DNA from: an uncultured Clostridia bacterium
GTDB taxonomy: Bacteria; Bacillota; Clostridia; TANB77; UBA1234
Assembly: GCA_934132775.1 (NCBI GenBank)
Contig: CAKPAA010000006.1
Location: forward strand, 1,983 to 65,982
DNA length: 64,000 nucleotides
Direction: 5' to 3'
The notes beneath the pieces were generated by a model. That model was not told the DNA's origin and made no database searches. It was given only the letters and a program-made list of their open reading frames with translations. A program made the translations under genes and the position numbers. Shown piece after piece: positions 27,306 through 62,443 of this stretch. The first letter of the stretch is position 1. Each line of letters begins with the position of its first letter.

Positions 27306-27479
27306 AAAAACTCCTTTAACATCTATCTCTTTTTAATACTTATATTTTCCCATATTTTACGATTTTTACTACTAAAAACCTGCTTTTCATAGTATTTCGG
27401 TAGTAATTATAATATCTAATTCATACTTTGTCAATAGGAATTGAAATAGCAAAAAAAACAAACAAGTGTAAAAACCATA

Positions 27480-27508
27480 TTGACACATTATGTAAATGGT
27501 GATATACT
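27480..27508 (+). promoter_or_regulatory. sigmaA-type promoter P1 (TTGACA-17-TATACT with TGn extension), spacer carries TTATGTAAA motif
   Basis: TTGACA cattatgtaaatggtga TATACT. Followed by AAAGGAG RBS and a GTG start at 27541. Confidence 0.7.
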
Positions 27509-27540
27509 AAGCGTACCAAATAGAAAAGGAGTGAATCTAT

Positions 27541-27981
27541 GTGAGGATTCGGATTCGGGCCTCTAGGAAACATCAGAACAGTAGCATCTTTGGTGAAGAT
27601 GTGAAGATGCTGAAAAACGCCTGCAAGCACATTGCTGAGTACTATTTGCTTGGTGATGAAGACATCGATTCAGAGTCAACCAAACCAACATATGAGGATG
27701 CTTATATGTTGGCAAGGAGCGACAACTGGATTGGTAGCATCGAGGAAGCCTACCAGACGTTGCTCAGCATTTGGCGTGCTCGTGAGCCTCGAGAGGTCGA
27801 AAAAGAAAACGCACTTAGAGAAGAACAATTCTCGATGTGCGAGGATGCATTCGACGTCATCAAGGAACTCGAACGTGCACACAACGTTCAGGTTAAATGG
27901 GGTGGTATTTCAGACCCCGGAAACTGGTTCCTGAACGACACAGGTGGGAATCGAATCGGTCGCATTACCGTCGATTCCTAA
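27541..27981 (+). CDS. hypothetical protein, GC-rich (about 47% GC) orphan gene, opposite orientation to neighbours
   Basis: 146-aa ORF. AAAGGAG RBS 9 nt upstream of GTG 27541 (alternative ATG 27607). GC content far above the about 30% background. No recognisable motif. Confidence 0.6.
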   Translation: MRIRIRASRKHQNSSIFGEDVKMLKNACKHIAEYYLLGDEDIDSESTKPTYEDAYMLARSDNWIGSIEEAYQTLLSIWRAREPREVEKENALREEQFSMCEDAFDVIKELERAHNVQVKWGGISDPGNWFLNDTGGNRIGRITVDS

Positions 27982-27986
27982 AACAC

Positions 27987-28020
27987 AACAACCACAGATT
28001 TTTTAATCTGTGGTTGTTAT
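27987..28020 (+). terminator. stem-loop terminator after the GC-rich gene (AACAACCACAGAT/ATCTGTGGTTGTT)
   Basis: Perfect 13-bp inverted repeat immediately after the stop codon. The downstream T-run is weak. Confidence 0.5.
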
Positions 28021-28855: not shown

Positions 28856-28937
28856 TACGTTCAGCGATTTGAAAAAGGACAAGACTCGTCCATACTCCAA
28901 TATCAAAGAAACAAAAATTCATTTAGCCAAAATAGTT

Positions 28938-29876
28938 CTATGCTGCACTAAAGCAAATAGTAAATTTTCTTCCATCAAAAAGATCTGGAGGAATTACAAG
29001 TTTAATTGGTATATGACTTATACTCTTATACTCCGCAATACTGTTTCTGTCATCTTCTCCATTTGGCCTCAAAACAGCATTGCTTATTTTTTCCCTTGCA
29101 TCACTGCATTTTTTCAGACTGCCGACAGCCTCTTTACCACTACTTGTGGAATTATCGCAATGGACAGAAACTGGCTTTGCTCTTTCAGAAATCTTTTCAC
29201 AAGCTGCAGGAACAGCAATTGAACTAGTCACTTTCTCTTTACGAAGTCTCCTATGATGCCTACAAAGAGTCTGATTTTCAGTATTAGTCTTTTCAGACAT
29301 TTCCTGTGTGGAAAGATCGGTAACCGTTTGCATATTTTCATTCTTTTCATGAGCATCATCATAAGATTTAGAAATAACAGATTGCCCTTCTTCTACTTTC
29401 TCACTAGGTTCTACCTTCTCACAATGATTTTCAAAAGTGGCAATATCTTCAAAACTAATGTGACGAACATATCTACGGCGTTTAGGCAAATCTATTGCAT
29501 CAACTACATTTGTAGCACTTTTCAAATTACATTCCGAAGGACTTTTAGGAGTATTAATACACATTATTCCAACTTCATCCTTAAAGAGTTCATCGGGTTT
29601 CATATTATCTTCATATTCTTCTTCATCTTCAACGTCATCTTCGACACCATAAATTTCTCTTCTAATTTTTCTCATTTTCATCTTTAAAAGAAAAGATTTT
29701 ACGTCTAATCCTTCAAAAAGCATATACATGCTGGTAGCAAAAAGATACAATGTGCCTAAATTAAGAACGAAAGCATACTTATCAGACAAATTGATAGCCG
29801 TAGAAATCCACATCATCATCGCGCAATAAAGCAACATGGAAACAGCAAAAATAGATTCCTTTTTATTATTACTCAT
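28938..29876 (-). CDS. hypothetical membrane protein (two N-terminal TM helices, acidic/Cys-containing C-terminal region), moderately GC-enriched
   Basis: AGGAGAA RBS 9 nt upstream of the ATG giving MSNNKK. TM segments IFAVSMLLYCAMMMWISTAI and AFVLNLGTLYLFATSMYMLF. About 38% GC. Confidence 0.55.
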   Translation of the reverse strand: MSNNKKESIFAVSMLLYCAMMMWISTAINLSDKYAFVLNLGTLYLFATSMYMLFEGLDVKSFLLKMKMRKIRREIYGVEDDVEDEEEYEDNMKPDELFKDEVGIMCINTPKSPSECNLKSATNVVDAIDLPKRRRYVRHISFEDIATFENHCEKVEPSEKVEEGQSVISKSYDDAHEKNENMQTVTDLSTQEMSEKTNTENQTLCRHHRRLRKEKVTSSIAVPAACEKISERAKPVSVHCDNSTSSGKEAVGSLKKCSDAREKISNAVLRPNGEDDRNSIAEYKSISHIPIKLVIPPDLFDGRKFTICFSAA

Positions 29877-30171
29877 AAATATCATTTCTCCTATTTTTAT
29901 TAACAATTCTTAGTTAATGCTTCTGACAACCAAAGTTTTATTACTTTTTTAAATAGGTTTTATAGTCTATTGTGAAATCGATATATATTTTTAAAATCCG
30001 CATCAGTCCATCTCTAATAAAAAATACAAACAGTAAGGTTAAATCTATATAAATTGCTAATCAGTAGCGCCTTTGCACCGATTGCAAGTAAAATTATTAA
30101 AACATTATTTGGCTTATTCAAGGTTGGTAAAAACACCTACCTTATGTAAAACTAATAAAAATAACAGTAAA

Positions 30172-30200
30172 CAGTATAATATGGTTTATGTAAATTGTCA
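30172..30200 (-). promoter_or_regulatory. sigmaA-type promoter P4 (TTGACA-17-TATACT) with TTTACATAAA spacer motif, pointing at 28938..29876 through a roughly 290-nt structured leader
   Basis: Minus-strand sequence TTGACA atttacataaaccatat TATACT. The leader contains a second TTTTACATAAGG copy and the hairpin AAGGTAGGTGTTTTTACCAACCTT. Confidence 0.55.
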
Positions 30201-30227
30201 ACCATAAAAACAAGTATTCGCAGATGA

Positions 30228-30282
30228 AACATAAAACATAAAACTAACAAGAATGTCTAGATTTCTGTTGATGTTTTATGTT
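30228..30282 (+). promoter_or_regulatory. operator-like inverted repeat AACATAAAACAT-N31-ATGTTTTATGTT overlapping the -35 of the 30385 gene promoter
   Basis: Perfect 12-bp arms. Central XbaI-like palindrome tctaga. The right arm abuts TGcTATAAT (30288-30296). Confidence 0.5.
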
Positions 30283-30296
30283 AATTGTGCTATAAT
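30283..30296 (+). promoter_or_regulatory. extended -10 promoter (TGcTATAAT) for gene 30385..30645
   Basis: TGTGCTATAAT with a weak -35. Followed by the 5' UTR hairpin CGGAGGcacggtCCTCCG (30344-30361) and an AAGAGGAGG RBS. Confidence 0.5.
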
Positions 30297-30384
30297 TAGA
30301 CTGTGTTTATAGACATTTGTATACCTTTGAAATGATTCTATTTCGGAGGCACGGTCCTCCGAAAATAAGAGGAGGAAAAAAACA

Positions 30385-30645
30385 ATGAAAAAATTTGCAA
30401 TCGACCTTAATTCAAAAGTAAAAGTTAAATTAACGAAAGCCGGAGTGGATGTGCTTCGCACACATTATATGATGTATAGACTTCCAGGCGCTCCGCAATT
30501 TAAAGTGTACACTGACAAGGATGGTTACTATGTAGCTACACTTTGGCAGCTTATGAATGCTTTTGGTGGATGTATGCTCTTAAACTCACCTTCTCTTTTC
30601 GAAGGTGATCTTGTCTTAATTGATGAGGATCAGTTCAAAGACTAA
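30385..30645 (+). CDS. hypothetical small protein (86 aa)
   Basis: Strong RBS AAGAGGAGG 8 nt upstream of the ATG. ORF followed by an intrinsic terminator. No recognisable domain. Confidence 0.6.
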   Translation: MKKFAIDLNSKVKVKLTKAGVDVLRTHYMMYRLPGAPQFKVYTDKDGYYVATLWQLMNAFGGCMLLNSPSLFEGDLVLIDEDQFKD

Positions 30646-30652
30646 AATGTAA

Positions 30653-30692
30653 TCGCCTAGTTAGCTTTATATGCTGACTAGGCGAACTTTTT
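30653..30692 (+). terminator. intrinsic terminator (TCGCCTAGT...ACTAGGCGA + TTTTT)
   Basis: 9-bp stem with a 15-nt loop, then actttttaa. Confidence 0.6.
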
Positions 30693-30896
30693 AATAAATT
30701 TAAAATTATTTTAAATGGAGCGATTTCGAAACAGGTATGCGAAAAAATGACTTACTTTGTTTCAAGCACTCTTATATAATTCGATTTATTGTTTATAATT
30801 TAACATAAATTATATCTTTTTACAAGATATAAAAATAAAAAACAGGAAAATTTTTTTTTACAAATTAATTATTATTTCAAAAAGGAGGTTATAATA

Positions 30897-31692
30897 TGCC
30901 AGAATTAAATGTTTTAAATCAAAAGATAACTTATATAAAAATTGATGATGAAGATTATATATCTATTACAGATATGCTTAAATCAAAAGATGGGGATTTT
31001 TTGTATCAGACTGGCTAAGAAATAGGAATACCATTGAATTTTTAGGCATTTGGGAAGAAATTCATAATCCTAATTTTAATTATGGCGAATTCGCCATAAT
31101 TAAAAGTCAAGCAGGTTTAAATAGCTATAAAATTAGTGTTAAAGAATGGACAGAAAAAACAAATGCAATTGGAATAATTTCAAAAGCTGGAAGATATGGA
31201 GGAACATATGCTCATAAAGATATTGCTTTTGAGTTTGGTATGTGGATTAGTCCAAAATTCAAGCTGTTATTGATAAAAGAATTTGAAAGATTAAAAGCAG
31301 AAGAACAAAAGCAAATAGGCTGGAATGCTAAAAGAGAACTTTCAAAAATTAATTATAGAATACATACAGATGCTATAAAGAAGAATTTAGTACCTAAAGA
31401 ATTAACTAAATTTCAAATAAACTTTGTTTATGCTGAAGAAGCAGATGTTTTAAATATGGCTTTATTTGGTATGACTGCAAAGGAATGGCATGATAAAAAT
31501 CCTAATTTAAATGGGAATATAAGAGATTATGCAACAATGAATGAATTGATATGCTTAGCAAATTTGGAAAATTTAAATTCTGTTTTTATAAATGAAAGAT
31601 TAAAACAAAGTGAAAGGCTTGAAAAATTAAATAAAATTGCAATTTCACAAATGCAAATTTTAAATGATACAGATATAAAATATCTAAAATAA
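30897..31692 (+). pseudogene. KilA-N domain (phage antirepressor-like) protein, frameshifted in a poly-T run near 31000
   Basis: AGGAGG RBS then MPELNVLNQKITYIKIDDEDYISITDMLKSKDGDF, ending in a stop at 31016. The next frame continues SDWLRNRNTIEFLGIWEEIHNPNFNYGEFAIIKSQAGLNSYKISVKEWTEKTNAIGIISKAGRYGGTYAHKDIAFEFGMWISPKF... into ORF 31240..31692. One T is missing from the run gattttttg. Confidence 0.7.
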
Positions 31693-31760
31693 TTATATTA
31701 AAAAAGAAAACTCCCACTTAAGTGAGAGAAAGATATATCTTTTTTGATGATGGCTTAAGC

Positions 31761-32108
31761 TTACTTCATTGTTGCACCAGAAACATTTATTGCCATAGAG
31801 TCACGGAACTGAATCATATCTTCCATTGAGAAGAAACTGAGGTAAACCTTGAGCTTGTGGTCTGCGTTGTGCATTTCCACTAGGTTAGCATTGCAACAAG
31901 CTGCCCACTTTAGAAGTGCTCTTGCTCTGTCAAATTCAACCTGCTTTCTATGGTTACTCTCCTTATCTCTCTTGGAAATAAACGATTCTTCTGCTTCGCC
32001 GATGGTCTGGTTCTTTACGATGAGAATCGGAGATTCAAGTGGGATAGATACCACGAGAACATATTCCTCAACCTTGGGTTTGGGTGATAAAATCTTAATG
32101 ATTGCCAT
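31761..32108 (-). CDS. hypothetical protein, GC-rich (about 42%) orphan gene
   Basis: 115-aa ORF. CAAGGAGG RBS. Consensus-type promoter P2 upstream. No recognisable motif. Confidence 0.55.
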   Translation of the reverse strand: MAIIKILSPKPKVEEYVLVVSIPLESPILIVKNQTIGEAEESFISKRDKESNHRKQVEFDRARALLKWAACCNANLVEMHNADHKLKVYLSFFSMEDMIQFRDSMAINVSGATMK

Positions 32109-32194
32109 AGTAATTCCTCCTTGGGCAGTTGCCCTGTCTAAAGTTGATTTTTCCTACATGATGAAACGGAGACCAGATTAGTTCATCACCTATA

Positions 32195-32223
32195 ATTATA
32201 TCATATTTTACATAAAATTGCAA
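32195..32223 (-). promoter_or_regulatory. sigmaA-type promoter P2 (TTGCAA-17-TATAAT with TGn extension), spacer carries TTATGTAAA motif
   Basis: Minus-strand sequence TTGCAA ttttatgtaaaatatga TATAAT. 12 of 17 spacer positions are identical to P1, including the 9-mer TTATGTAAA and tga before the -10. Confidence 0.65.
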
Positions 32224-32402
32224 TGAATTTTTTCGTTTGTACCCATTTTTGAACTAATTTATGTCAGATATCTCTAGTTTGTCTTATATTGAATTTTATT
32301 TTATTAGTAAATTTTCTAATAATAAATTTAAACACAAAAAAAGGGCGCACTAACCCTATTACAACCTCATGTGTCTTTTAATTTTATTTACGCTACTAAA
32401 CT

Positions 32403-33053
32403 TCATATATTTTCTTGTTTATTCTTTATATGTCCTTTTGCTATTGTTAGCATTACTATAAATGTTAGATTTAACATTATTTTCATACCTCTTTTACAAT
32501 TTTCTATTACTGGAACACCAATAACATGCATATGTGGAGATGTTTCATCAAAATGTATTGTTGCATTAGCTATTTTAAAAGTAGGTAGTATTTTAGATAA
32601 ATCTTGAATTTGCTCATTATATACATCAGTCATTTTAAATCTATATTCATCATCTTTATCTTGCCAAAAGTCCATATCTCCAAGTTCTATAATAATTTCA
32701 CAGGCAATATCATTTTGAGAATTACAAACTTTTTGAAAGTAATCTTTAACTTGTCTATCAGCTCTTGTCTTGCTATTATATTCAATTCTAATTTTTTCGA
32801 ATTCATCTAAATAGACTTGTTTAACATCTTCTACAATATCATTAGTTTCATAAATAGTAGTAATTAAATCTCTTTGATTATCGTAATCTCGTAAATTGTG
32901 TTTATTTACTCTTGGTAAATCATTTGCATTTTGAATAGCATTATTTGAAAGGGAAGTAGTTCCAGATACATTTCCTTTAGCTGTTTTTTTTGCTATTTTA
33001 CTTTTATTCTTATCACTACCCAAGTGAAAAGAATAGGCTAATTCTTGTTCCAT
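32403..33053 (-). pseudogene. mob: MobV-family (Pre/Mob) relaxase, truncated after the relaxase domain (about 217 aa instead of about 400-500)
   Basis: KHNLRDYDN, ACEIIIELGDMDFW and ATIHFDETSPHMHVIGVPV match MobM motifs I-III (HxDExxPHxH). AAGGAGGTG RBS before the ATG giving MEQELAYS. The ORF ends about 30 aa after motif III with non-Mob sequence. Confidence 0.65.
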
Positions 33054-33086
33054 TAAACGCACCTCCTTGAACTTTCTTCGAAGCAC

Positions 33087-33200
33087 AGGACTTTGACTTT
33101 GTCATAAGTCCTAACCTCCTATGAGTTATGACGTGCCATCATAACTCGGGGGCTCTGCGAGTCAATAAATTTTCTCCCAATGGGATAAAATTTATTCAAA
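33087..33200. promoter_or_regulatory. oriT-like region upstream of mob: adjacent hairpins AGGACTT-N12-AAGTCCT and GAGTTATGA-N7-TCATAACTC
   Basis: Two perfect inverted repeats immediately 5' of the mob start, as in pMV158-type oriT. Further downstream are TTGCAACA direct repeats (33262-33292). Confidence 0.5.
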
Positions 33201-33300
33201 TTACCTCACACAAAATTTATATTGCTAACGCAAATATAAATTTGTATTCGCCAATTTGCTTGTTGCAACATTGCATATAAAAAAGTAATAGTTGCAACAA

Positions 33301-35157
<1,857 letters not shown>

Positions 35158-35278
35158 TTTTCCATTTACAACCTCCTAAAAAAAAAACAAAGTGCTAGAA
35201 AGCCTTTGCTAACTAACACTTAAAAAATCTAATATTTACTTGTTATATTACTTGCTAAAAACAAAAAATCTTTTAGTA

Positions 35279-35575
35279 TTAGTTGCCATTGATAAAATCT
35301 CTTAATTTTGAGAGTGGATATTTATTTGCTAAATTGCCTATGCAAAAGTATTCGTGTTCATTAAAGAATAGATATAACTTGTCTTTAATGAATATTCTAT
35401 GAGGTTCTACATAAGCAATATTAGTTTTTTCTATCATTCTCAAATTACCATTCTTTATCTTTGGTTCACAATTACTAAAAGTGCAAGCCCATTCAATCTT
35501 AGAATGTAATTCTTTACTCATTGTTATTTCTCTTTTAACTGTAGATATCGTATCACAAAAACCTCCTTTTTTCAA
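35279..35575 (-). CDS. hypothetical protein (98 aa)
   Basis: ORF only. No clear RBS or motif. Lies between the recombinase and tRNA-Thr. Confidence 0.35.
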   Translation of the reverse strand: MKKGGFCDTISTVKREITMSKELHSKIEWACTFSNCEPKIKNGNLRMIEKTNIAYVEPHRIFIKDKLYLFFNEHEYFCIGNLANKYPLSKLRDFINGN

Positions 35576-35615
35576 TATTTTGAGGCTATTTTTCTACTTT
35601 ATGAAAATTTAAGGT

Positions 35616-35642
35616 AAAAAAATAAGCCGACTAAATCGACTT
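35616..35642 (-). terminator. intrinsic terminator downstream of tRNA-Thr (AAGTCGA-tttag-TCGGCTT + T7)
   Basis: 7-bp stem with one G-U pair, followed by ATTTTTTT on the minus strand. Confidence 0.5.
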
Positions 35643-35726
35643 ATATAAAGTGATACAATATTCACTTTTGTTTTCTTCAAACTCAATTATACCAATAATT
35701 ATAAGTAGTTCGACGAAAACGCATTA

Positions 35727-35802
35727 TGGAGCCAATGACAGGAATCGAACCTGCGACCTGCTGATTACGAATCAGCTGCACTACCGACTGTGCTACATTG
35801 GC
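35727..35802 (-). tRNA. tRNA-Thr (anticodon CGT)
   Basis: Minus-strand sequence GCCAATGTAGCACAGTCGGTAGTGCAGCTGATTCGTAATCAGCAGGTCGCAGGTTCGATTCCTGTCATTGGCTCCA folds as a cloverleaf. 7-bp acceptor stem, anticodon loop TTCGTAA, T-loop GGTTCGATTCC, encoded CCA. Confidence 0.9.
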
Positions 35803-35948
35803 ATTTTGGTGCATGACCTCGCTCACGCACCTATTATTATAAAGTTATTGTTTGTAAATTGCAATCACTTTTTTACACAATATAAAAGTAATGAATTTAG
35901 AAAACATACAAGTGTACAAAACTTCACATTTATAATTGATTATTATCC

Positions 35949-39203: not shown

Positions 39204-40949
39204 CTACGTTCTTAATTTTACGTGCACTTCTCTTAACAGTTTTTCTGTAACCTCACCTGGTGCCCCCATTAGCAAGTCTTCTGCATTTGCAGTCATTGGA
39301 AATGCAATTATTTCTCTTATGCATTCTTCATCAGATAGAAGCATTATTATTCTATCAACTCCTGGTGCCATTCCTGCGTGTGGAGGAGCTCCATATTGGA
39401 AAGCTTTATATAATGCTCCAAATCTCTTTTCTAATTCTTCCTTAGAGTATCCCGCAATTTCAAAAGCCTTTTCCATTATATCTATTCTATGATTTCTAAC
39501 TGCGCCAGAAGATAGTTCCACACCATTGCAAACAATATCGTATTGATATGCTTTTACATCAAGTGGATTTTGTTCTTCCAAGGCTTTTAATCCACCTTGT
39601 GGCATTGAAAATGGATTATGCATAAAATCTATTTTTCCGTCAATTCCTAACTCATACATTGGGAAATCTGTAATAAAGCAAAAGTCAAATCTGTCTTTAT
39701 CAATAAGTCCCATTCTGTTTCCAAGTTCTGTTCTTATTTGCCCTGCAAGTTTGTTTATAACGTATTTAGAATCTGAAATGAAGAATACTACATCTCCAAC
39801 TTTTAAATTCAATTTTTGTCTAATTTCTTCTGTCTGCTCAGGTGTAAAATATTTTGCTATTGGTCCTTTATAGCTACCATCTTCCTCAACTTCTATATAT
39901 CCCAAACCTTTCATTCCAATACTTAAAGCAAAATCTAACATTTTTTCAAAAAAAGATTTTGGCATTTTTGTACAATCATTAACAACAATTCCTCTTACTA
40001 ATTTTCCTTTAAAAGGCTTAAATTCAACATTTGCAAAAAAGTCTGTTAAATCCTCAATTAAAAGTGGATTTCTTAAATCTGGCTTATCTGAGCCATATTT
40101 TAGCATAGATTCTTCATAAGGTATTCTTACAAATGGTTTTGTGCTTATCTTTTTATCTGAGAATTTTGAAAAAACATCTGTTAAAACTTCTTCTGCCACA
40201 TCAAAAACATCTTCTTGTGTTGCAAATGCCATTTCAAAATCAAGTTGATAAAACTCACCTGGCGTTCTATCTGCTCTGGCGTCTTCATCTCTAAAACAAG
40301 GTGCAATTTGAAAATATTTGTCTATTCCAGACACCATAAGTAATTGCTTAAACTGTTGTGGGGCTTGTGGCAACGCATAAAATTTGCCTTTATGTTTTCT
40401 TGATGGAATTATATAATCTCTTGCTCCCTCAGGTGATGACGAAGTAAGAATTGGTGTTGTTATTTCTGTGAATTTCATACTTTCCATCTTTTTTCTTAAA
40501 TAGCTAACAACTTTTGACCTAAATAAAATTTTATCTTTTACTTTTTCATTTCTTAAATCCAAGTAACGATATTTTAAACGTACATCTTCTTTGGTTTTTA
40601 AAGATTCTTGAATTTCAAAAGGTAACACATTTTCGCATTCGCCTAATACTTCAATTGTTTCTGCAACAACTTCAACTAATCCAGTTTTAATATGTGGGTT
40701 AATTGTGTCCTCATCTCTTTTTATAACCTTTCCCTCAACTGATATTACAGTTTCTTTACAAAGTTTCTTTATTTCTTCTCCATCGTGTATAACAATTTGA
40801 GAAATTCCATATTGGTCTCTTAAATCTAAAAAAGTAACCCCACCGTGGTCTCTTATAGACTGAATCCAACCTGCCAATTTTACAACTTTTCCAATATCTT
40901 CTTCTGATATTTCATTGCAATTATGTGTTCTGTACTTAAATTTTTCCAT
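39204..40949 (-). CDS. aspS: aspartyl-tRNA synthetase (probably non-discriminating, co-operonic with gatCAB)
   Basis: Class II aaRS motifs FRDEDLRADRQPEF-like (FRDEDARADRTPGEF) and GGAPPHAG. AGGAGG RBS 9 nt upstream of the ATG giving MEKFKY (40949). Confidence 0.9.
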   Translation of the reverse strand: MEKFKYRTHNCNEISEEDIGKVVKLAGWIQSIRDHGGVTFLDLRDQYGISQIVIHDGEEIKKLCKETVISVEGKVIKRDEDTINPHIKTGLVEVVAETIEVLGECENVLPFEIQESLKTKEDVRLKYRYLDLRNEKVKDKILFRSKVVSYLRKKMESMKFTEITTPILTSSSPEGARDYIIPSRKHKGKFYALPQAPQQFKQLLMVSGIDKYFQIAPCFRDEDARADRTPGEFYQLDFEMAFATQEDVFDVAEEVLTDVFSKFSDKKISTKPFVRIPYEESMLKYGSDKPDLRNPLLIEDLTDFFANVEFKPFKGKLVRGIVVNDCTKMPKSFFEKMLDFALSIGMKGLGYIEVEEDGSYKGPIAKYFTPEQTEEIRQKLNLKVGDVVFFISDSKYVINKLAGQIRTELGNRMGLIDKDRFDFCFITDFPMYELGIDGKIDFMHNPFSMPQGGLKALEEQNPLDVKAYQYDIVCNGVELSSGAVRNHRIDIMEKAFEIAGYSKEELEKRFGALYKAFQYGAPPHAGMAPGVDRIIMLLSDEECIREIIAFPMTANAEDLLMGAPGEVTEKLLREVHVKLRT

Positions 40950-41098
40950 TTTATATTTCCTCCTTTTTTCAAGGGACGAAAAACTCAAAAACAAAAAAAT
41001 CCTAGTATTCTATAAAATACTAGGGACGAATTTTCCGTGGTACCACCCAAGTTTCAATACTCTTTTTAAAATATTAAACTCTAATACCACCATAACTA
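40950..41098 (-). promoter_or_regulatory. proximal T-box-like module: T-box core GGGTGGTACCACGG plus intrinsic terminator. Too short to hold a Stem I, so apparently a partial duplication of the distal element
   Basis: Minus-strand sequence AACTTGGGTGGTACCACGGAAAATTCGTCCCTAGTATTTTATAGAATACTAGGATTTTTTTG. Only about 105 nt lie between this and the distal terminator. Confidence 0.55.
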
Positions 41099-41099
41099 T

Positions 41100-41357
41100 G
41101 CATTACAAAAAGTCCTTAGTGTAAACTAATTTCTACACTAAGGACGAAAAATCATAATTCGTGGTACCACCTTATATTTTAATACTCTAAAAAGAATATC
41201 CTCTCTAGTTTTTAACGCAACCTCTGCGAACTTACTTTGCATAAGCCTGCTAGTAAGGTGTTCTTTCGTTAGTTTCAATTGCAATCACTCTCAGCTTAAT
41301 AATGCTTGCTCTCTTTAATCTACCTCTAATTACTTTTCCTTAATCAACGCATTTAAT
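41100..41357 (-). promoter_or_regulatory. T-box riboswitch leader (distal, full length) of the aspS-gatCAB operon, with its own terminator
   Basis: GA/K-turn-like AGAGAG near the 5' end. T-box core AAGGTGGTACCACGAA. Terminator CCTTAGTGTAGAAA-TTAG-TTTACACTAAGG + ACTTTTTG. A possible specifier AAC followed by A (GAAAGAACACC, plus 41258-41268) is tentative. Confidence 0.7.
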
Positions 41358-41363
41358 AGAAAA

Positions 41364-41391
41364 ATACTAGCACACATAAAAAACGTTGTCA
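41364..41391 (-). promoter_or_regulatory. sigmaA-type promoter of the T-box leader (TTGACA-17-TAGTAT)
   Basis: Minus-strand sequence TTGACA acgttttttatgtgtgc TAGTAT. Confidence 0.6.
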
Positions 41392-41514
41392 ATATATTTT
41401 TTGAATAATTATTGAAAGACTGAGCAGAGGTTTGTATTAAAGATAGAATTTGCTTTAAGAAGCTAAAATTATTTTTACAAACTGCCCAAGATTTTAATAT
41501 AGATTAAATAGTTC

Positions 41515-41561
41515 AAAAAATAGGATTCGAATCATTATTTTGATTCGAATCCTATTTTTAT
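41515..41561. terminator. bidirectional intrinsic terminator (TAGGATTCGAATCA/TGATTCGAATCCTA, flanking A6/T5)
   Basis: Perfect 14-bp inverted repeat with a 7-nt loop. Terminates the minus-strand GC-rich gene 41664..42434. Confidence 0.75.
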
Positions 41562-41663
41562 CAGAGACTTTTTACAGCCTCTCCTATTTCTAGTGTACAA
41601 ATTCTTGTGCACTCATGAACTAGTAGGTGTTTCTAAACTATCTAGCACCTATCTTCGAAAGTG

Positions 41664-42434
41664 TTACATTTGATTAGCTCTTTTCGAAGAATATTCCGAC
41701 ATCGCAGGAAAATGAAGTCCACGGCTATTTTTTTTCGTATGGACTTTCGAATAGCCTCCGTCAATCTCAGGATACATATACCCTGCAATCCCAAGTTTCA
41801 TCTCGCTAATCTTCTCCCTCGACAACATCGAGGTGCGCACAGCAAGCATGTAGTGCTCACAATTGCTGACGAAGAACACCGGATTACGCATATTCAGCGT
41901 CTGATATCCATCCGTAATCCACGAATACTTTTCGATGCGCTTCAGATTTCCTCTGTCACGCACCTTAGCGCAGCCACCACATTCATCAGATGCAGCAGAA
42001 AGCCGAGCACATTCCTTACCTGCAGATGCACAATAGTGCATCCTGCCAAGCTTGAAATGGTTCATGAAGTCGAGCTTTTCACAGCTCTTGTCCAACTCTG
42101 CCCAGTAGCAAATGCCACACTTCTTAATAATAAAGGCAGGCGCGGAAGTCTTGCGAAGCACTTTGAGTTCGTCCTTGTTAACCTTTTTGAGCTCATAGCG
42201 CTTATCTTTGCTCTCAGAGCTGAGCACTTCTTTCGAAACAATCGAAAGAGGTTTACCAGTTTTGGCACTGATTTCGACAAGAAGCCGACAGTCCTGCTCT
42301 TCCGAGCAGATAATCACCGCCGACATGTCATCTGCCACAATAACCTCTTTGCTTACCGTCATCTTCTCCCGCATTTCATGGACTTCCGATACTCCCTTTT
42401 GAATAGGAAACACAAACCCACTATCGCTCATAGA
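41664..42434 (-). CDS. hypothetical Cys-rich protein, GC-rich (about 50%) orphan gene inserted between the aspS leader promoter and asnS
   Basis: GGAGG RBS 8 nt before the ATG giving MSDSGFVFPIQKG. Cys clusters KKCGICYW...SCEK...HYCASAGKECARL...DECGGCAKV. Perfect consensus promoter P3 upstream. The opposite-strand ORF 41661..42629 lacks an RBS or promoter. Confidence 0.6.
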   Translation of the reverse strand, partial: SMSDSGFVFPIQKGVSEVHEMREKMTVSKEVIVADDMSAVIICSEEQDCRLLVEISAKTGKPLSIVSKEVLSSESKDKRYELKKVNKDELKVLRKTSAPAFIIKKCGICYWAELDKSCEKLDFMNHFKLGRMHYCASAGKECARLSAASDECGGCAKVRDRGNLKRIEKYSWITDGYQTLNMRNPVFFVSNCEHYMLAVRTSMLSREKISEMKLGIAGYMYPEIDGGYSKVHTKKNSRGLHFPAMSEYSSKRANQM

Positions 42435-42497
42435 CACGTTCCTCCTTCTTTGAGAAAAAAATCTCAAGTCATTATTAGTAATAGAGTTACAGACATT

Positions 42498-42526
42498 ATT
42501 ATACATTTTTATGTAAACATTGTCAA
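42498..42526 (-). promoter_or_regulatory. sigmaA-type promoter P3 (perfect TTGACA-17-TATAAT) with TTTACATAAA spacer motif
   Basis: Minus-strand sequence TTGACA atgtttacataaaaatg TATAAT. Confidence 0.7.
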
Positions 42527-42650
42527 TTATATTTTTCGAAAAATAAAGAAGATGCATTTTTTTCTACATCTCCTTTGGATTTTCATGTTAAACCATTTAA
42601 ATTTTTCAAAACTAGGCTTACTTTTATAGTTTACTTCTAATAAAATCAGA

Positions 42651-44033
42651 CTAAAACTCACAATTTCCTGGTGTTCTTGGGAATGGTATTACGTCTCTTA
42701 TATTCTCAACACCTGTTATATAGATAAGTAATCTTTCAAAGCCCATTCCAAAACCTGAATGAACACAGCTACCATATCTCCTCAAATTTAAATACCAGTC
42801 TAACTCTTCTGTGTGCATTCCAAGTTCGTGCATACGATTTAATAGTTTATCGTAGTCTTCTTCTCTTTGACTTCCACCCATTAGCTCACCTGCGCCTGGC
42901 ACTTCTAAGTCAACAGCTGCAACAGTTTTACCGTCTGCATTTTGTTTCATATAAAATGCTTTTATATCTTTTGGCCAATTTGTAATAAACACTGGTCCGT
43001 TAAAGTATTCTGTTATATACTTTTCATGCTCTTTCGCAATATCCTCACCATATTCAGGCTTAAACTCCCAATCTACTTTTGCATTTTTTAATATTGTTAT
43101 TACTTCTTCGTGTGTAACTCTCTTAAACTCGCTTGATAAAACTTTTTCAAGTTTTTCAATTAAACCTGGTGCAACAAACTTATTTAAGAAAGTCATTTCT
43201 TCTGGGCATTTTTCTAAAACATATTTTATTATGTATTTAAGCATATCTTCTTCTATGTCCATAACGCCTTCCAAATCGCAAAATGCAATTTCTGGCTCTA
43301 TCATCCAGAATTCTGATGCATGAGTTTTTGTATTTGAATTTTCTGCTCTAAAAGATGGTCCAAATGTGTATGTCCTTCCATATGCCATAGCAAAGGCTTC
43401 TGCCTCTAATTGACCAGTTACAGTTAATCCAACGTGCTTTCCAAAGAAGTCTTTGTCATAACAAACTTTTCCGCTCTCAGCAACTTTGTCTAAATCTAAT
43501 GTTGTGACTTGGAACATTTCTCCTGCACCCTCGCCATCATTTGCAGTTATAAGTGGAGCATGTAGATAAACGTATCCTTGTGACTGAAAATATTCATGAA
43601 TTGCCATTGCTGCAACGCTTCTAACTCTAAACACAGCACTAAATAAATTCGTTCTTGGTCTTAGATATGCTTGTTCTCTTAAAAATTCTATAGTGTGTCC
43701 CTTCTTTTGAAGTGGATAATCACTTGGAGATAAGCACTCTATTTTTACATTAGTAGCTTTTATTTCAAATGGCTGTTTTGCTTCTGGCGTTAACACAAAC
43801 ACACCAGTTACAATTATTGAAGAACTAACTGTTAACTTTGTAAGCTCAGCAAAGTTTTCTAATTTATCTTCATAAACAATTTGTATATTTTTAAAATATG
43901 AGCCATCGTTTAGCTCTATAAATCCAAAAGTCTTTGAATCTCTGGCTGTTCTTACCCAACCAGCCAAAGTTATTTCTTTTCCAGAAAAATTTTCAGATTC
44001 TTTGTATAAATCTTTTACTAACACTTTATTCAT
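42651..44033 (-). CDS. asnS: asparaginyl-tRNA synthetase
   Basis: Class IIb aaRS with an N-terminal OB fold. GGGAGG RBS 7 nt before the ATG giving MNKVLVKD. C-terminal motif 3 GFGMGFERL. Confidence 0.9.
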
Positions 44034-59638: not shown

Positions 59639-60920
59639 CTACATAGGCATATGTTCTTTAAGCCATTTAATTCTATCTGCTCTGACTTTTTCTTTCAATT
59701 TATTAAACTCCTTTTCCCCAGGATATTTCTTTCCATTTATCTCAGTCATCATTTCTTTTCCAATAATTGCAAACTCAATTTTTCTATTCGTTGTTTTATC
59801 TGCATTTGCCAAAATTTCCATTCCGTCCAGCCCCAAGCTACTTTTATAAATCCTCTCAATAAAATCTACTCTTTTAGGATAAGTCATTATATCAAAAATT
59901 CCAGCTCGCATATGTTCTAAGCAAGCAGTTTTACCTATTTTATGCCACTTAGCAGGAAGTTTTAGCCTGCTACATAATTTGTTTAATGGCTCAATACCAT
60001 TTTCTTCATGATTTATATGTCGTGGTAAAATTTCTTTTGGTGTTGCAGCCTTACCTAAGTCGTGAACTAAACCTGCAAATACAATACTCGGATTTGATGT
60101 GTCTATTGCAATTTTATCTATTACTAACATCGTGTGTTCATACGCATCGCCTTCTGGATGATACTGTATTGGTTGCTCAACACCAATTAAATCATTTACC
60201 TCTTTAAAATGCTCTTCTAACAAATTAGCACTTTTTAAAGCATTAAAAAATTTACTTGGTCTATTAGCTTGCAATGCTCTTTCTAATTCTGCAAACACTC
60301 TCTCAGAAGACAAAAAATCTAATTCTAACTTACATTTCTTCATAAGTTCAAGTGTATAATCATCAATCTTAAAATCATTTTCATCGTTATCAAAATACTC
60401 TTCCGTTTTAAAAAAACTATCTACACACAACTTCTTTGATAACTGGGCTAAAAACCTTGCAACTCTGTACGCTCTCAAAGGATCTTCTAAAAAAGCATCA
60501 CTAGTTGCTCTAATCACTTTATTTTTCAAATCACGCACTCCGATTAAACGGGTCTATAATTTCTTCAGTCAGCACATCTTTTGCAATGCTATTTATCGTT
60601 ATATCTCTTCTTTTCAAATCTTCTTCTATCGATATTTTACTATTAGTAAGCATTTCAAAACCCTTGTGCCCATTAGAAACTTTCTTTTCAACTCTTGCCA
60701 TTGCAAACTCAATATTATCCATTGTGAATACAGGAAAGGATTTTCCCTGAATTTTGGCATTTGGAAATATCTCTTCAAAAGTTTCTCTTTCAATTCCAGT
60801 AACACAATAGTCATAATCTTTTGGCTGTAATCCAAGCAAACTATCCCTTAATGCTCCGCCAACTAAATAAAGTCTACCACCATATTTTTCTATTTTTTTA
60901 GCGATATATATAATATCCAA
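59639..60920 (-). pseudogene. cca: CCA-adding tRNA nucleotidyltransferase with HD domain, split by a 1-nt insertion near 60542
   Basis: Head domain GGALRD...DYD (ORF 60531..60920) ends ...IIDPFNRSA*. The +1 frame continues (V)RDLKNKVIRATSDAFLEDPLRAYRVARF... with HD motif LVHDLGK (ORF 59639..60538). Removing the c in aat c gga restores IIDPFNGVRDLKN. Confidence 0.8.
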
Positions 60921-61220
60921 CTTTAATGACCACCTCCAAAAGCCTATTCTAACGTGTTCGTACTAAAATCTCACTCGGTTATTATAGCATATTTTGCTAC
61001 ATACAGCAATAAGTAACAAAGCAAAAAAATGTCCATTCTCTTTAACAGCACATAACTTACTCAAATAGAAATTTACTTTTTTAAGTTTCAACAAAATACC
61101 CACATTTTTATAAATATTAAGCTCTCACTAATACTTGAAATTGAAAAAGGAGAACAGTTTTTGACTGTTCCCCCCTTTTTCCCTTAAAACTCAACTCAGA
61201 AGAAGTTTAATCTTCTAATC

Positions 61221-61943
61221 TCAGCCCTCCATTTTTGTAATTCTCACAATAGAGACCTCGTACGTAGTTCTAGCTTCTACATCTTCGGAGTCCGAAAGCT
61301 TTTTCAAGTATTCCCTACTCTGTACTCTACCATACAACTTAATCCAGTCGCCTACTTCAAGCTTGCTCGCATATTGTGCAGCTCTTCCCCAAGCAATGCA
61401 AGGAATATAGTCAACTTTATTGTGAGGTCTACCTACTGCAATTACGAAGTCAGTAATCTGCCTACCCAAAGGCGTCGTTCTGAATGTAGACTGCCTACAA
61501 ATGTGACCGTTCAAATAGATTAAGTTTTCAATTGGTAAAGCATACTCCAATTCTTCTCCAATTTCATAAACTTTGATGTTCCTGGCAAACAGGAACAGCT
61601 CCAAATGCTTCCGACCATCTTTGCCAACTTTTTTATAAGAACGTAACTGTCCTTCAACTTTGACATACTTGCCTTTCAAACCACTTTCAATGGCAATGGG
61701 CATCAGCAACTCAGATACAATTATGGGTATATAGTCTGCAGTTCCACTCAACCTCACAACCCTTATTCTGGTTTTGTAGAATTTTTCCCGCAAAAACTCG
61801 TGGCTATACTCGAATTCTTCCTCGATAAAGCCACTTACGCAAATCTTGTTGAAATCGGTAGAGGCATTTTCTTTGCCAATACTTATACCTTGGTAAGTTA
61901 CGACCTTGTTGTCCTGCGTTGCTACGAAACTTTTTTCTGACAT
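61221..61943 (-). CDS. SSB-like protein with two OB-fold repeats, GC-enriched (about 42%)
   Basis: C-terminal repeat DFVIAVGRPHNKVDYIPCIAWGRAAQY...GDWIKLYGRVQSREY resembles the SSB core. AGGAGG RBS 9 nt upstream of the ATG giving MSEKSF. Confidence 0.55.
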   Translation of the reverse strand: MSEKSFVATQDNKVVTYQGISIGKENASTDFNKICVSGFIEEEFEYSHEFLREKFYKTRIRVVRLSGTADYIPIIVSELLMPIAIESGLKGKYVKVEGQLRSYKKVGKDGRKHLELFLFARNIKVYEIGEELEYALPIENLIYLNGHICRQSTFRTTPLGRQITDFVIAVGRPHNKVDYIPCIAWGRAAQYASKLEVGDWIKLYGRVQSREYLKKLSDSEDVEARTTYEVSIVRITKMEG

Positions 61944-62443
61944 TGTACTATTTCCTCCTGTAATAATATTTTTTTGCTTATAGTACATTAGTAGAAAGAA
62001 TTTTTTAACTTGTTTATTAGCACAAATACTGCACTAATAATCAGATTCAGAAATTACTTCTTCCTCCTTTATAGTAATATAAACAGCATACAAATTATAA
62101 CATCAATTAACAATTTTGTAAAGATTATGTAAAATAGTTTCTTAGATTCATAATAAACTTCTACCTTCCATATTGAACTCACTTTCGGAAATAGAAATTA
62201 CTTTTGCAAGTTGTCATTTAAATAATACAGCCAAAATACATTTTAATCTCAAATAACTAAAATTGAAAAAATCGCTCATAAATAATGCACATTTCAAATT
62301 TTATCTAACCGTAAATTTGTTGTTGTTTACGAGTTGACTTTTTATAGCTTTTACGTTAATATAAGCTTTGTGTAAATGCCAAGTCATTCAGGTATTTACG
62401 CAAATCATTTACAGAATTTGATAAAAAAGGAGAGTTATTATAA

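What the first reader, a model, noticed from the sequence alone, without database searches (positions are those of the whole stretch)
27541..27981. GC-rich single-gene cassettes, each with its own strong promoter and terminator, inserted in intergenic regions in opposite orientation to their neighbours
The genes at 27541..27981 (about 47% GC), 31761..32108 (about 42%), 41664..42434 (about 50%) and the SSB-like 61221..61943 (about 42%) sit in about 30%-GC DNA. All four have RBS motifs; the first three have consensus promoters, and a TTTACA-17-TATAAT promoter with an adjacent motif copy lies upstream of the fourth. The first three are followed by hairpin terminators. The 41664 cassette sits between the promoter of the aspS T-box leader and asnS. 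The 27541 cassette sits between sufC and the island. None of the products has a domain I can recognise. The 41664 product is Cys-rich with several CxxC-like clusters. Small GC-divergent genes with strong promoters are typical of toxin/immunity, anti-defence or phage moron genes. The island itself could not be compared with related strains.
Basis: partly seen in the sequence, partly recalled or inferred. Interest (0 to 1): 0.6.

Follow-up and report, generated by a model that had tools for sequence, protein, structure and literature searches.

The report
GC-rich orphan genes, fixed not inserted
Four small genes with foreign-looking, GC-rich codon usage and their own promoters really exist in this AT-rich gut bacterium, but they are four different things, and the focal one is a stably inherited, fast-evolving orphan protein of probable phage ancestry rather than a recently inserted, strain-variable cassette.

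Summary
The observation largely holds. The four genes are the only real GC3 outliers among about 58 ORFs (GC3 0.41-0.53 vs about 0.22; CAI 0.35-0.48 vs 0.73±0.03). Each has a near-consensus promoter, a strong RBS and a hairpin terminator. "Opposite orientation" is true only for 27541..27981, and 41664..42431 is 46% GC, not 50%.

Cassettes 1 and 3 are not presence/absence insertions. They occur in every contig of the species. They also sit at the same position, still GC-rich, in sister species whose housekeeping DNA is 88-96% identical, while the proteins are only 53% and 65-87% identical. Both are real coding genes (dN/dS about 0.2) with no known domain or fold. Cassette 1's family has five clusters among 5.8 billion proteins, one of them in a phage-like array of small ORFs.

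Cassette 2 is true mobile cargo on a decaying serine-recombinase element at tRNA-Thr. Cassette 4 is a known two-OB SSB (NCBIfam NF004476) of phage recombination-module type.

Two things remain unexplained: high GC persists across hosts without visible decay, and the mRNAs of cassettes 1 and 3 fold unusually well. Interest is moderate and function is unknown.

The parts
27480..27508 (+). Cassette 1 promoter: TTGACA-17-TATACT with extended -10 TG. The 9-mer TTATGTAAA (27488-27496) lies inside the spacer.
   Evidence: The -35, the 9-mer and the -10 are conserved in the divergent orthologous locus L172.
27526..27544 (+). Cassette 1 RBS (AAAGGAG) and start context. The GTG start at 27541 overlaps a minimal ATG-TGA start-stop (27539-27544).
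   Evidence: Sequence. CTATGTGAG is conserved in L172. Homologues P0064, P0065 and P0066 begin at the equivalent position.
27541..27981 (+). Cassette 1 CDS: 146-aa soluble alpha/beta protein of a tiny orphan family. 47.8% GC, GC3 0.53.
   Evidence: dN/dS 0.20 vs L200 and 0.18 vs L172. AF2 model pLDDT 82. No Pfam/PHROG/PADLOC/NCBIfam/PDB/BFVD match. The family is 5 clusters in 5.8e9 proteins.
27987..28018 (+). Cassette 1 intrinsic terminator: 14-bp stem followed by a T-rich tail.
   Evidence: The stem is conserved in L172.
31761..32108 (-). Cassette 2 CDS: 115-aa protein with no known domain, 41% GC, GC3 0.46. It is cargo of the tRNA-Thr integrative element.
   Evidence: Its 90% cluster includes P0022, which occurs on 384 contigs. 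There is 94% DNA identity to L183 across 30708-32220.
32195..32223 (-). Cassette 2 promoter: TTGCAA-17-TATAAT with TG. TTATGTAAA lies in the spacer (32207-32215).
31711..31728 (-). Cassette 2 terminator hairpin.
30708..35804 (.). Integrative mobilisable element carrying cassette 2. It has a Mob_Pre gene (32403-33086) and a degraded large serine recombinase (33301-34302 plus 34280-34990), and it abuts tRNA-Thr(CGT) at 35727-35802.
   Evidence: The element is absent from strain L002 (RelB/YoeB there) and from sister species L172 (methyltransferase plus AbiEi/AbiEii there).
41664..42431 (-). Cassette 3 CDS: 255-aa basic (pI 9) Cys/His-rich protein, 45.8% GC, GC3 0.52, confined to this genus.
   Evidence: dN/dS is 0.21-0.27. 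Invariant residues are C108, C117, H132, C134, C141, C151, C154, C191 and H193.
42498..42526 (-). Cassette 3 promoter: perfect TTGACA-17-TATAAT with an inverted TTATGTAAA in the spacer. A conserved 5'-UTR hairpin and a GAAGGAGG RBS follow (42435-42497).
   Evidence: The promoter block is 100% identical in three species.
41518..41562 (-). Cassette 3 terminator: 13-bp inverted repeat flanked by A/T runs (bidirectional), about 100 nt after the stop codon.
   Evidence: Read from the sequence. It is picked up as a hairpin by sub-threshold Rfam matches. The simple terminator scan did not call it.
41137..41356 (-). aspS T-box leader (context, not part of the cassette). Its promoter is TTGACA-17-TAGTAT at 41392-41364.
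61221..61943 (-). Cassette 4 CDS: 240-aa two-OB-fold single-stranded DNA-binding protein, NCBIfam NF004476/PRK05813, GC3 0.41.
   Evidence: It has 373 relatives on viral contigs, where the gene sits next to a Rad50-like ATPase and RecT.
62094..62122 (-). Cassette 4 promoter: TTTACA-17-TATAAT with TG. TTATGTAAA (inverted) lies just upstream at 62125-62133.
61152..61170 (.). Hairpin downstream of cassette 4 that could act as a bidirectional terminator.
   Evidence: called on the + strand. The T-run on the minus strand was read from the sequence.

Best explanation
The four loci are real, compositionally foreign, self-contained transcription units, but they are four different things of mobile-element ancestry at different stages of domestication. 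The focal gene (27541..27981) most likely encodes a small soluble protein that came from a phage or other mobile-element accessory gene. It became fixed at the edge of a tRNA-Thr integration and defence hot spot in the ancestor of a genus of uncultured gut Bacilli. Shown: it is transcribed, on sequence evidence, as a monocistronic unit from a conserved near-consensus sigma-A-type promoter to a conserved hairpin terminator; it has a conserved RBS and GTG start; it is under purifying selection (omega about 0.2); it is present in every strain sampled; and it is syntenic in a sister species. Inferred: the product acts through protein-protein contacts with a rapidly changing partner in phage/mobile-element versus host conflict. 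That would explain why the protein is only 53% identical between species whose neighbouring proteins are 98-99% identical. Because dS equals that of the flanks at short range but is saturated at longer range, the sister-species allele was probably swapped in by recombination from a divergent pool, not diverged in place. Cassette 3 (41664..42431) is an analogous genus-restricted gene for a basic, probably metal-binding Cys/His protein inserted between asnS and aspS. Cassette 2 is cargo of a decaying integrative element. Cassette 4 is a phage recombination-module SSB captured as a solo gene.
For: Composition and codon outliers. Promoters, RBS and terminators, and their conservation. Fixation and synteny: c1 in L001-L007, L192-193 and L200-202, and in L172; c3 in L194-199, L008 and L010. 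Ancestral state without c3: asnS abuts aspS in L100, L102 and L103. Coding signature: c1 dS 0.147, dN 0.029 vs L200, with flanks at dS 0.07-0.22; c1 pS 0.70, pN 0.29 vs L172, with flanks at pS 0.26-0.37; c3 omega 0.21-0.27. Tiny family. Relatives in other settings: P0065 is a stand-alone cassette at another locus in a 27%-GC genome, with GC3 0.47 and its own promoter and terminator. P0066 lies in an array of more than 20 small co-oriented ORFs with homing-endonuclease and phrog_4273 matches. Hot-spot context: three different contents between orf322 and tRNA-Thr in three genomes, namely the integrative element, RelB/YoeB, and a methyltransferase plus AbiEi/AbiEii. Divergence rises from about 27450 through DUF5684 (80% aa identity) and orf322 (67% nt identity) into the island. 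c2 mobility. c4 identity.
Against: No function is demonstrated. c1 to c3 have no hit in PADLOC, Pfam, PHROGs, NCBIfam, PDB sequences, PDB folds or BFVD folds. They also have no relatives in 2.9 million viral contigs, even with family profiles. The phage assignment of the P0066 contig rests on weak PHROG matches and has no match in the phage genome collection. No donor with 45-50% GC is known. High GC persists in every family member and host (GC3 0.46-0.63 in 27-39%-GC backgrounds). Polarised substitutions in c3 show no net GC-to-AT decay. A simple 'foreign gene being ameliorated' model does not predict either of these. c1 and c3 are not next to identifiable defence genes or toxins.
Confidence: 0.5

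Rival explanations
1. The high GC content is itself the selected trait. Cassettes 1 and 3 are kept GC-rich because their mRNAs must be unusually structured or stable. Alternatively, codons that are rare in this host throttle or condition their translation, so composition reflects function rather than ancestry.
For: c1 transcript folding z = -7.75 against dinucleotide shuffles. The CDS alone gives z = -6.5. Permuting synonymous codons gives z = -6.55 for c1 in the window and -4.61 in L200, and -2.35, -3.90 and -2.77 for c3 in three species, against +0.14 to -1.29 for native genes. GC3 stays at 0.46-0.63 in all five c1-family contexts. c3 shows 23 AT-to-GC against 10 GC-to-AT polarised third-position changes where about 31% AT-to-GC is expected. 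Cassettes use codons nearly absent from native genes: CTC, CGG, CCC, ACC, ATC.
Against: Excess folding is absent in c2 and c4 (z about 0 and -1) and in three of five c1 family members (z -0.3 to -1.6). RNAalifold on c3 gives no covariation support (term -0.33 kcal/mol, with many pairs broken in L008). Both strands of c1 fold well (-6.5 and -4.5), which points to DNA-level inverted repeats, not an RNA-specific structure. The polarisation test is biased by parsimony with a distant outgroup; native genes also show an apparent AT-to-GC excess (161 vs 88).
Confidence: 0.15
2. One reading: all four are recently inserted, strain-variable moron-like cassettes encoding toxin/immunity, anti-defence or lysogenic-conversion functions.
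For: Each matches the formal anatomy of a moron, with its own promoter and terminator and divergent GC (definition in PMC3594210). c2 is on an element that is present in strain L001 and absent from L002. c4 has phage relatives.
Against: c1 and c3 were present in every contig carrying the flanking genes (7 of 7, and all contexts from 22 contigs). They are syntenic in sister species. None lies in a prophage. No toxin or partner gene is adjacent. PADLOC gives no hits. c4 is a curated SSB family, not a conflict gene.
Confidence: 0.1
3. Cassettes 1 and 3 are native, lineage-specific genes, either born de novo or diverged beyond recognition, with no mobile-element ancestry. The atypical composition would come from a local process such as GC-biased gene conversion at a recombination hot spot.
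For: No donor or wider family is detectable among 5.8 billion proteins. Position is stable. Within-species diversity is elevated at c3 (pi 0.018 against 0.002-0.010 in the flanks). c1 lies beside a recombination/integration hot spot.
Against: Gut-microbiome orphan genes normally match their genome's GC, and de novo candidates are lower in GC (PMC11293555); here GC3 is about 30 points higher. The c1 family also occurs at unrelated loci in other genomes and in a phage-like array, each time with high GC, which implies horizontal movement. The adjacent promoters, untranslated regions and neighbouring genes are not GC-enriched, so a regional conversion bias would have to stop exactly at the ORF boundaries.
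Confidence: 0.12
4. The GC-rich segments are structured non-coding RNA genes, and the ORFs are chance products of low stop-codon density in GC-rich DNA.
For: GC-rich islands with a strong promoter and terminator in AT-rich genomes are typical of structured RNAs. c1 folds at z = -7.75. c3 has long ORFs on both strands.
Against: No Rfam family matches, at gathering or at E<=1. Strong, conserved RBS and start context. pN is far below pS in the annotated frames. ORF length is preserved at 30-65% protein identity. The c3 antisense ORF is broken in L008. There is no covariation. A confident protein model exists for c1.
Confidence: 0.03

Closest known systems
Phage morons: independent promoter-gene-terminator units of divergent GC content within phage genomes (definition as given in PMC3594210)
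   Same: Single gene with its own sigma-70-type promoter and intrinsic terminator, and composition clearly different from both neighbours. c1 is also transcribed against its neighbours. One c1 relative and hundreds of c4 relatives lie on phage-like contigs.
   Different: c1, c3 and c4 lie among housekeeping genes (suf operon, asnS/aspS, cca/argS), not in a prophage. c1 and c3 are fixed in the species and syntenic across sister species, not 'more DNA' relative to close relatives. They are GC-richer than the host, whereas phage-derived DNA is usually AT-richer.
Bacterial ORFan / species-specific orphan genes of the human gut microbiome (PMC11293555; PMC12315717)
   Same: Short, lineage-restricted, no detectable homologues, low codon adaptation, fast-evolving yet under purifying selection.
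   Different: Gut orphan genes on average match their genome's GC, and virus-like ones are lower in GC. These are 10-16 points higher in GC (about 30 in GC3). They are core (noncloud) genes and keep that composition in different hosts.
Two-OB-fold SSB, NCBIfam NF004476 (PRK05813); structurally like Thermus/Deinococcus SSBs (PDB 2ihf, 2fxq) - applies to cassette 4 only
   Same: 228.8 bits against a cutoff of 171. Both OB folds match solved SSBs. In phage contigs the gene sits with a Rad50/SbcC-like ATPase and RecT.
   Different: Here it is a solo gene with its own promoter between a Clp ATPase gene and cca, with no recombination partners nearby.
Integrative mobilisable elements with a large serine recombinase and a Mob_Pre relaxase, targeting a tRNA gene - applies to the island carrying cassette 2
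   Same: The element abuts tRNA-Thr(CGT) in two unrelated hosts. It carries Mob_Pre and a serine recombinase and shows 83-94% DNA identity between hosts.
   Different: In the window the recombinase lacks its first 64 residues and is split in two, so the element is probably immobile. Cassette 2 is GC-rich relative to its own 26-30%-GC element.

Membership tests
Phage moron | Own promoter and own terminator flanking a single gene | tested here: met
   plus sequence reads. These parts are conserved in orthologous loci.
Phage moron | [quoted passage not shown] | tested here: met
   GC3 is 0.41-0.53 against a native value of about 0.22. CAI is 0.35-0.48 against 0.73±0.03.
Phage moron | Located within a phage or prophage genome, between conserved phage genes | tested here: not met
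   c1 lies between sufC and DUF5684, c3 between asnS and aspS, and c4 between a Clp ATPase gene and cca. c2 is in an integrative mobilisable element, not a phage.
Phage moron | Present in one genome and absent from closely related ones ('more DNA') | tested here: not met
   c1 and c3 are present in all conspecific contigs and in sister species. They are absent only from distant Bacilli. The feature is met for c2 through its element.
SSB, NCBIfam NF004476 / PRK05813 (cassette 4) | Full-length score above the curated cutoff | tested here: met
   228.8 bits against a cutoff of 171, covering residues 29-239.
SSB, NCBIfam NF004476 / PRK05813 (cassette 4) | Two OB folds homologous to SSB | tested here: met
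   Pfam SSB at 140-233 (E=8e-17). The N-terminal OB at 31-125 matches PDB 4gs3 (1e-13). Residues 90-212 match the two-OB Thermus SSBs.
SSB, NCBIfam NF004476 / PRK05813 (cassette 4) | Binds single-stranded DNA | not testable with these tools
   Needs biochemistry.
Known anti-phage defence systems (PADLOC) / toxin-antitoxin pairs | Match to a defence-system protein model, or an adjacent cognate partner gene | tested here: not met
   No PADLOC match at E<=1 for any of the four. All four are single-gene units with their own terminators.
Anti-defence proteins (anti-restriction, anti-CRISPR, DNA mimics) | Homology to a known anti-defence family, or consistently very acidic DNA-mimic character | tested here: inconclusive
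   No dedicated library was available. Pfam, PHROGs and BFVD are negative. The c1 family pI ranges from 5.0 to 8.9, so it is not a consistent DNA mimic.
Structured non-coding RNA gene | Match to an RNA family, or a conserved structure with covariation and no coding signature | tested here: not met
   No Rfam match. The covariation term is -0.33 kcal/mol. pN is far below pS and the RBS is conserved.
Integrative mobilisable element (island carrying cassette 2) | Site-specific recombinase plus relaxase, tRNA-adjacent, shared between unrelated genomes | tested here: met
   Mob_Pre. Serine recombinase homology of 77-86% to the intact 626-aa protein, but degraded here. tRNA-Thr(CGT) abuts the element in both hosts. 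DNA identity is 83-94%.

The most novel reading that the evidence does not exclude
In this clade of AT-rich gut Bacilli, a class of small, fast-evolving accessory genes is actively held at about 45-50% GC. Selection on the nucleic acid would do this, for example for highly base-paired, nuclease-resistant mRNA, or for dependence on rarely used codons. Composition would then be a functional property that travels with the gene across hosts and mobile elements, not a fading mark of foreign origin. A shared promoter-spacer element (TTATGTAAA) would tie these genes into one regulon.
Probability: 0.12. Interest if true: 0.7.

Novelty: new member of a known kind. Interest (0 to 1): 0.38.

Why it matters
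Atypical GC is routinely read as recent horizontal transfer. Here the signal is real, but for two of the four genes that inference is wrong. They are fixed, syntenic across species, and show no sign of drifting toward host composition. This is a caution for island and moron prediction in AT-rich metagenome-assembled genomes.

The work also flags two uncharacterised protein families confined to an uncultured gut lineage. One has a confident model with no fold match in PDB or BFVD, the only fold libraries that could be searched. The other is a Cys/His-rich basic protein. Both are rapidly evolving and may take part in conflict with phages or other mobile elements. If the persistence of high GC and the excess mRNA folding prove to be selected, that would be an unusual case of nucleotide-level selection on accessory genes.

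Tried and rejected
1. RNA-gene hypothesis. Rfam at gathering threshold on the whole window, and at E<=1 on 40900-42700, found only tRNA-Thr and the aspS T-box. RNAalifold on six c3 sequences gave no covariation. Rejected.

2. Conserved antisense gene over c3 (41661..42629+, 322 aa). The frame is open in the window and L010 but has 2 stops in L008. It is a by-product of avoiding TTA/CTA/TCA codons. Rejected.

3. Local hypermutation as the cause of fast divergence. c1 dS equals that of its flanks at short range. Rejected for c1. c3 dS is about 2-2.5 times its flanks at both distances, which is partly explained by faster mutation at G/C sites.

4. DNA-mimic idea for c1. The family's pI is inconsistent. 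Not supported.

6. Searches for more relatives. Single sequences and family profiles on viral contigs, the c3 profile and a back-translated Cys-core pattern on JGI metagenome contigs, and L191 against phage genomes all found nothing.

7. The 86-aa gene at 30385-30645 as a regulator for the TTATGTAAA motif. It has no recognisable domain. Unresolved.

8. Species identification.
Full report
SETTING. The window is 32% GC and most genes are on the minus strand. It comes from an uncultured human-gut bacterium. Exact copies of its proteins occur on Hadza and other gut metagenome contigs. The closest species-representative genomes by AsnS (66-71% identity) are 'Bacilli bacterium' MAGs.

THE OBSERVATION. 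The composition claim holds. Among about 58 ORFs, the four named genes are the only real GC3 outliers: 27541..27981 (c1) 0.53, 31761..32108 (c2) 0.46, 41664..42431 (c3) 0.52 and 61221..61943 (c4) 0.41, against a native mean of 0.24. A fifth flagged ORF, at 16630, is a short antisense ORF. Codon adaptation to native usage is 0.35-0.48, against 0.727±0.030 (minimum 0.654) for 36 native genes. The cassettes use codons that native genes almost never use, namely CTC, CGG, CCC, ACC and ATC.

Each gene has a top-scoring promoter (c1 11/12 with TG, c2 10/12 with TG, c3 12/12, c4 11/12 with TG), a GGAG/GGAGG ribosome-binding site and a hairpin terminator. The aspS T-box leader is real at 41137-41356(-), 89.8 bits.

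Three details are wrong or overstated:
- c3 is 46% GC, not 50%.
- Only c1 is transcribed against both neighbours; c3 is co-oriented with asnS and aspS.
- Consensus promoters are not unique to the cassettes, since the suf operon has a 12/12 promoter at 27434-27406(-).

NOT RNA GENES. GC-rich islands in AT-rich genomes are often structured RNAs, so I tested this first. Rfam finds only tRNA-Thr and the T-box. The ORFs carry a coding signature (see below) and conserved start contexts. The long antisense ORF over c3 is broken in one orthologue.

CASSETTE 1 (the focal gene). The exact protein occurs in 36 blocks of the collection, always as sufC -> c1(+) -> DUF5684. Looking up SufC instead returns only contigs that also carry c1, 7 of 7.

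The family is very small. A word-indexed search of 5.8 billion proteins found two clusters at 96-98% identity. An exhaustive HMMER pass over 1.84 billion representatives added one protein at 53% (P0064) and one at 30% (P0065). A family-profile search added one more (P0066).

- P0064 lies at the same position and orientation in a sister species (L172) whose flanking DNA is 87-93% identical to the window. The promoter, the 9-mer in its spacer, the extended -10, the ATGTGAG start context and the terminator stem are all conserved there.
- P0065 is at an unrelated locus (near upp, a Y1 transposase and ftsY) in a 27%-GC genome. It is again a 42%-GC (GC3 0.47) single gene with its own TTGACG-17-TATAAT promoter and terminator.
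- P0066 sits in a 39%-GC contig within more than 20 small co-oriented ORFs. Several of these have weak PHROG matches (homing/HNH endonuclease, and phrog_4273 at 1e-9). That looks like a phage accessory region, and the gene has GC3 0.63 there.

Against a 95%-identical variant (L200), c1 has dS 0.147 and dN 0.029 (omega 0.20), with flanks at dS 0.07-0.22. Against L172, pS is 0.70 and pN 0.29, while flanks have pS 0.26-0.37. So c1 is a purifying-selected coding gene with an ordinary local mutation rate. The sister-species allele is far older than the species split, which is best explained by allele replacement. Divergence rises at about 27450 and continues through DUF5684 (80% aa identity) and orf322 (67% nt identity) into the variable island. 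That places c1 on the flank of a hot spot.

An AlphaFold model built from six sequences is confident (pLDDT 82, pTM 0.68). It has an N-terminal strand, four helices and a C-terminal three-stranded sheet. It has no significant neighbour in PDB or BFVD. Pfam, PHROGs, PADLOC, NCBIfam and PDB sequence profiles are all negative.

CASSETTE 3. Relatives at 94%, 87% and 65% identity are all found as asnS -> c3 -> aspS -> gatCAB, co-oriented. All contexts returned for the neighbouring xerC-like gene contain c3. In more distant Bacilli, asnS abuts aspS directly. So c3 is an old, lineage-specific addition.

The orthologues keep elevated GC (47% and 41% against flanks of 31-32%). The promoter block and the 5'-UTR hairpin plus RBS are 100% identical in three species. 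omega is 0.21-0.27, dN is 10-40 times that of the flanks, and dS is about 2-2.5 times. Within-species diversity is 0.018, against 0.002-0.010 for neighbours.

The protein is basic (pI 9). Its invariant residues are C108, C117, H132, C134, C141, C151, C154, C191 and H193, which suggests metal binding. The structure model was unusable. No further relatives were found in viral or JGI metagenome contigs.

CASSETTE 2. Its 90% cluster includes a protein seen on 384 contigs. In a different, 28%-GC genome it lies in an element with an intact 626-aa serine recombinase and a KilA-N gene. Window 30708-32220 and 32662-35804 match that element at 94% and 83% identity. The element abuts tRNA-Thr(CGT) in both hosts.

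In the window the recombinase is degraded: it lacks residues 1-64 and is split at about residue 299. The element is present in strain L001 but replaced by RelB/YoeB in L002, and by a methyltransferase plus AbiEi/AbiEii in the sister species. So c2 is genuine mobile cargo. It is GC-rich even relative to its own element.

CASSETTE 4. It scores above the curated cutoff of NCBIfam NF004476/PRK05813. Both OB folds match solved SSBs. It has 373 relatives at about 45% identity on viral contigs. There the gene is compositionally ordinary (40% against 37%) and sits with a Rad50-like ATPase and RecT. It is a captured phage-type SSB, fixed between a Clp ATPase gene and cca.

WHAT REMAINS ODD. First, high GC is a persistent family trait, not a fading mark. 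With L008 as outgroup, c3 shows 10 GC-to-AT against 23 AT-to-GC third-position changes on the window and L010 branches, where native per-site rates predict about 31% AT-to-GC (P about 5e-6). Parsimony with a distant outgroup inflates AT-to-GC calls, so I rate this as suggestive only.

Second, c1 and c3 fold better than expected.
- Dinucleotide shuffles: the c1 transcript gives z = -7.75, the c1 CDS -6.5 and the c3 CDS -3.7, while 14 native genes range from -2.2 to +1.1.
- Synonymous-codon permutation: c1 gives -6.55 (L200 -4.61), and c3 gives -2.35, -3.90 and -2.77 in three species, against +0.14 to -1.29 for native genes.

This signal is absent from c2, c4 and the other c1 family members, affects both strands of c1, and has no covariation support.

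Third, TTATGTAAA occurs 8 times against 3.0 expected. It lies in the -35/-10 spacer of c1, c2 and c3 and of two further promoter-like sites, and just upstream of the c4 -35.

COMPARISON WITH WHAT IS KNOWN. The units match the anatomy of phage morons (own promoter and terminator, divergent GC; PMC3594210). They fail the defining context (a phage genome) and, for c1 and c3, the presence/absence criterion. They resemble bacterial orphan genes in being short, fast-evolving and poorly codon-adapted. Gut orphan genes normally match host GC, however, and virus-like ones are lower in GC (PMC11293555).

VERDICT. The grouping into one class of recent insertions is not. c4 is known, c2 is ordinary mobile cargo, and c1 and c3 are new, genus-restricted, fixed orphan families of probable mobile-element ancestry with unknown function and unexplained nucleotide-level peculiarities. 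Interest is moderate.

Noticed in passing
window 21191, 27488, 30142, 30186, 32207, 42509, 45245, 62125: The 9-mer TTATGTAAA occurs 8 times against 3.0 expected (0 of 100 shuffles reach 8). Five copies lie inside the 17-nt spacer of strong promoter-like sites: c1, c2, c3, 21191(-) upstream of a metallophosphoesterase gene, and 30186(-) upstream of orf322. A sixth lies just upstream of the c4 -35. It is conserved in orthologous c1 and c3 promoters. It may be an operator for an unidentified regulator.
   Followed up: partly
window 27541-27981 and 41664-42431: The coding sequences of c1 and c3 fold much better than dinucleotide shuffles or synonymous-codon permutations (c1 z about -6.5; c3 z -2.4 to -3.9 in three species; native genes about 0). 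c1 contains several perfect local hairpins, for example the 12-bp stem at 27685-27712. There is no covariation support, and the signal is absent from more distant family members.
   Followed up: partly
window 27539-27544: A minimal ATG-TGA start-stop ORF overlaps the GTG start codon of c1 by one base. The CTATGTGAG context is conserved in the sister species. It may compete with c1 translation initiation or tune it.
   Followed up: no
window 28900-35900 (compare L002 and L172): The interval between orf322 and tRNA-Thr(CGT) is an integration/defence hot spot. It holds the integrative element here and in L001, RelB/YoeB in strain L002, and a methyltransferase plus AbiEi/AbiEii in the sister species.
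   Followed up: partly
window 33301-34990 (-): The element's large serine recombinase is degraded. The 236-aa ORF corresponds to residues 65-299, and the 333-aa ORF to residues 299-626, of the intact 626-aa protein in L183. The catalytic N-terminus is missing, so the element is probably immobile.
   Followed up: yes
window 30268-30690 (+): There is another small self-contained unit: a TTGATG-17-TATAAT promoter with TG, a GC-rich 5'-UTR hairpin (about 30346-30363), a strong RBS, an 86-aa ORF (30385-30645, GC3 0.33, no known domain) and a 13-bp terminator (30653-30685). It is present in all strains regardless of island content.
   Followed up: partly
window 59639-60920 (-): The CCA-adding enzyme is encoded as two adjacent, slightly overlapping ORFs: 129 aa with the PolyA_pol head domain, and 296-299 aa with the RNA-binding domain. 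The same split is called in other strains (L186, L187), so it is either a conserved split gene or a programmed frameshift.
   Followed up: no
window 41001-41356 (-): The aspS leader has a full T-box (41137-41356). A second partial T-box match (41022-41095, model positions 146-216) follows it. There are two terminator-like hairpins (41145-41112 and 41024-41001). That suggests tandem terminator/antiterminator modules.
   Followed up: no
window 27306-27445: The region upstream of sufC is almost invariant between sister species (2 differences in about 140 nt), although synonymous sites in the flanking genes differ by 26-37%. It contains the 12/12 suf promoter (27434-27406) and presumably a conserved regulatory leader.
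   Followed up: no
window 41661-42629 (+): A 322-aa ORF runs antisense to c3 in exact codon register. It is open in the window and L010 but has two stops in L008, so it is an artefact of c3's avoidance of TTA/CTA/TCA codons, not a gene.
   Followed up: yes
L188 1924-3277: In one conspecific contig, c4 is followed by a group II intron reverse transcriptase (RVT_1 + GIIM) instead of cca. This indicates an intron insertion or a rearrangement downstream of c4 in some strains.
   Followed up: no
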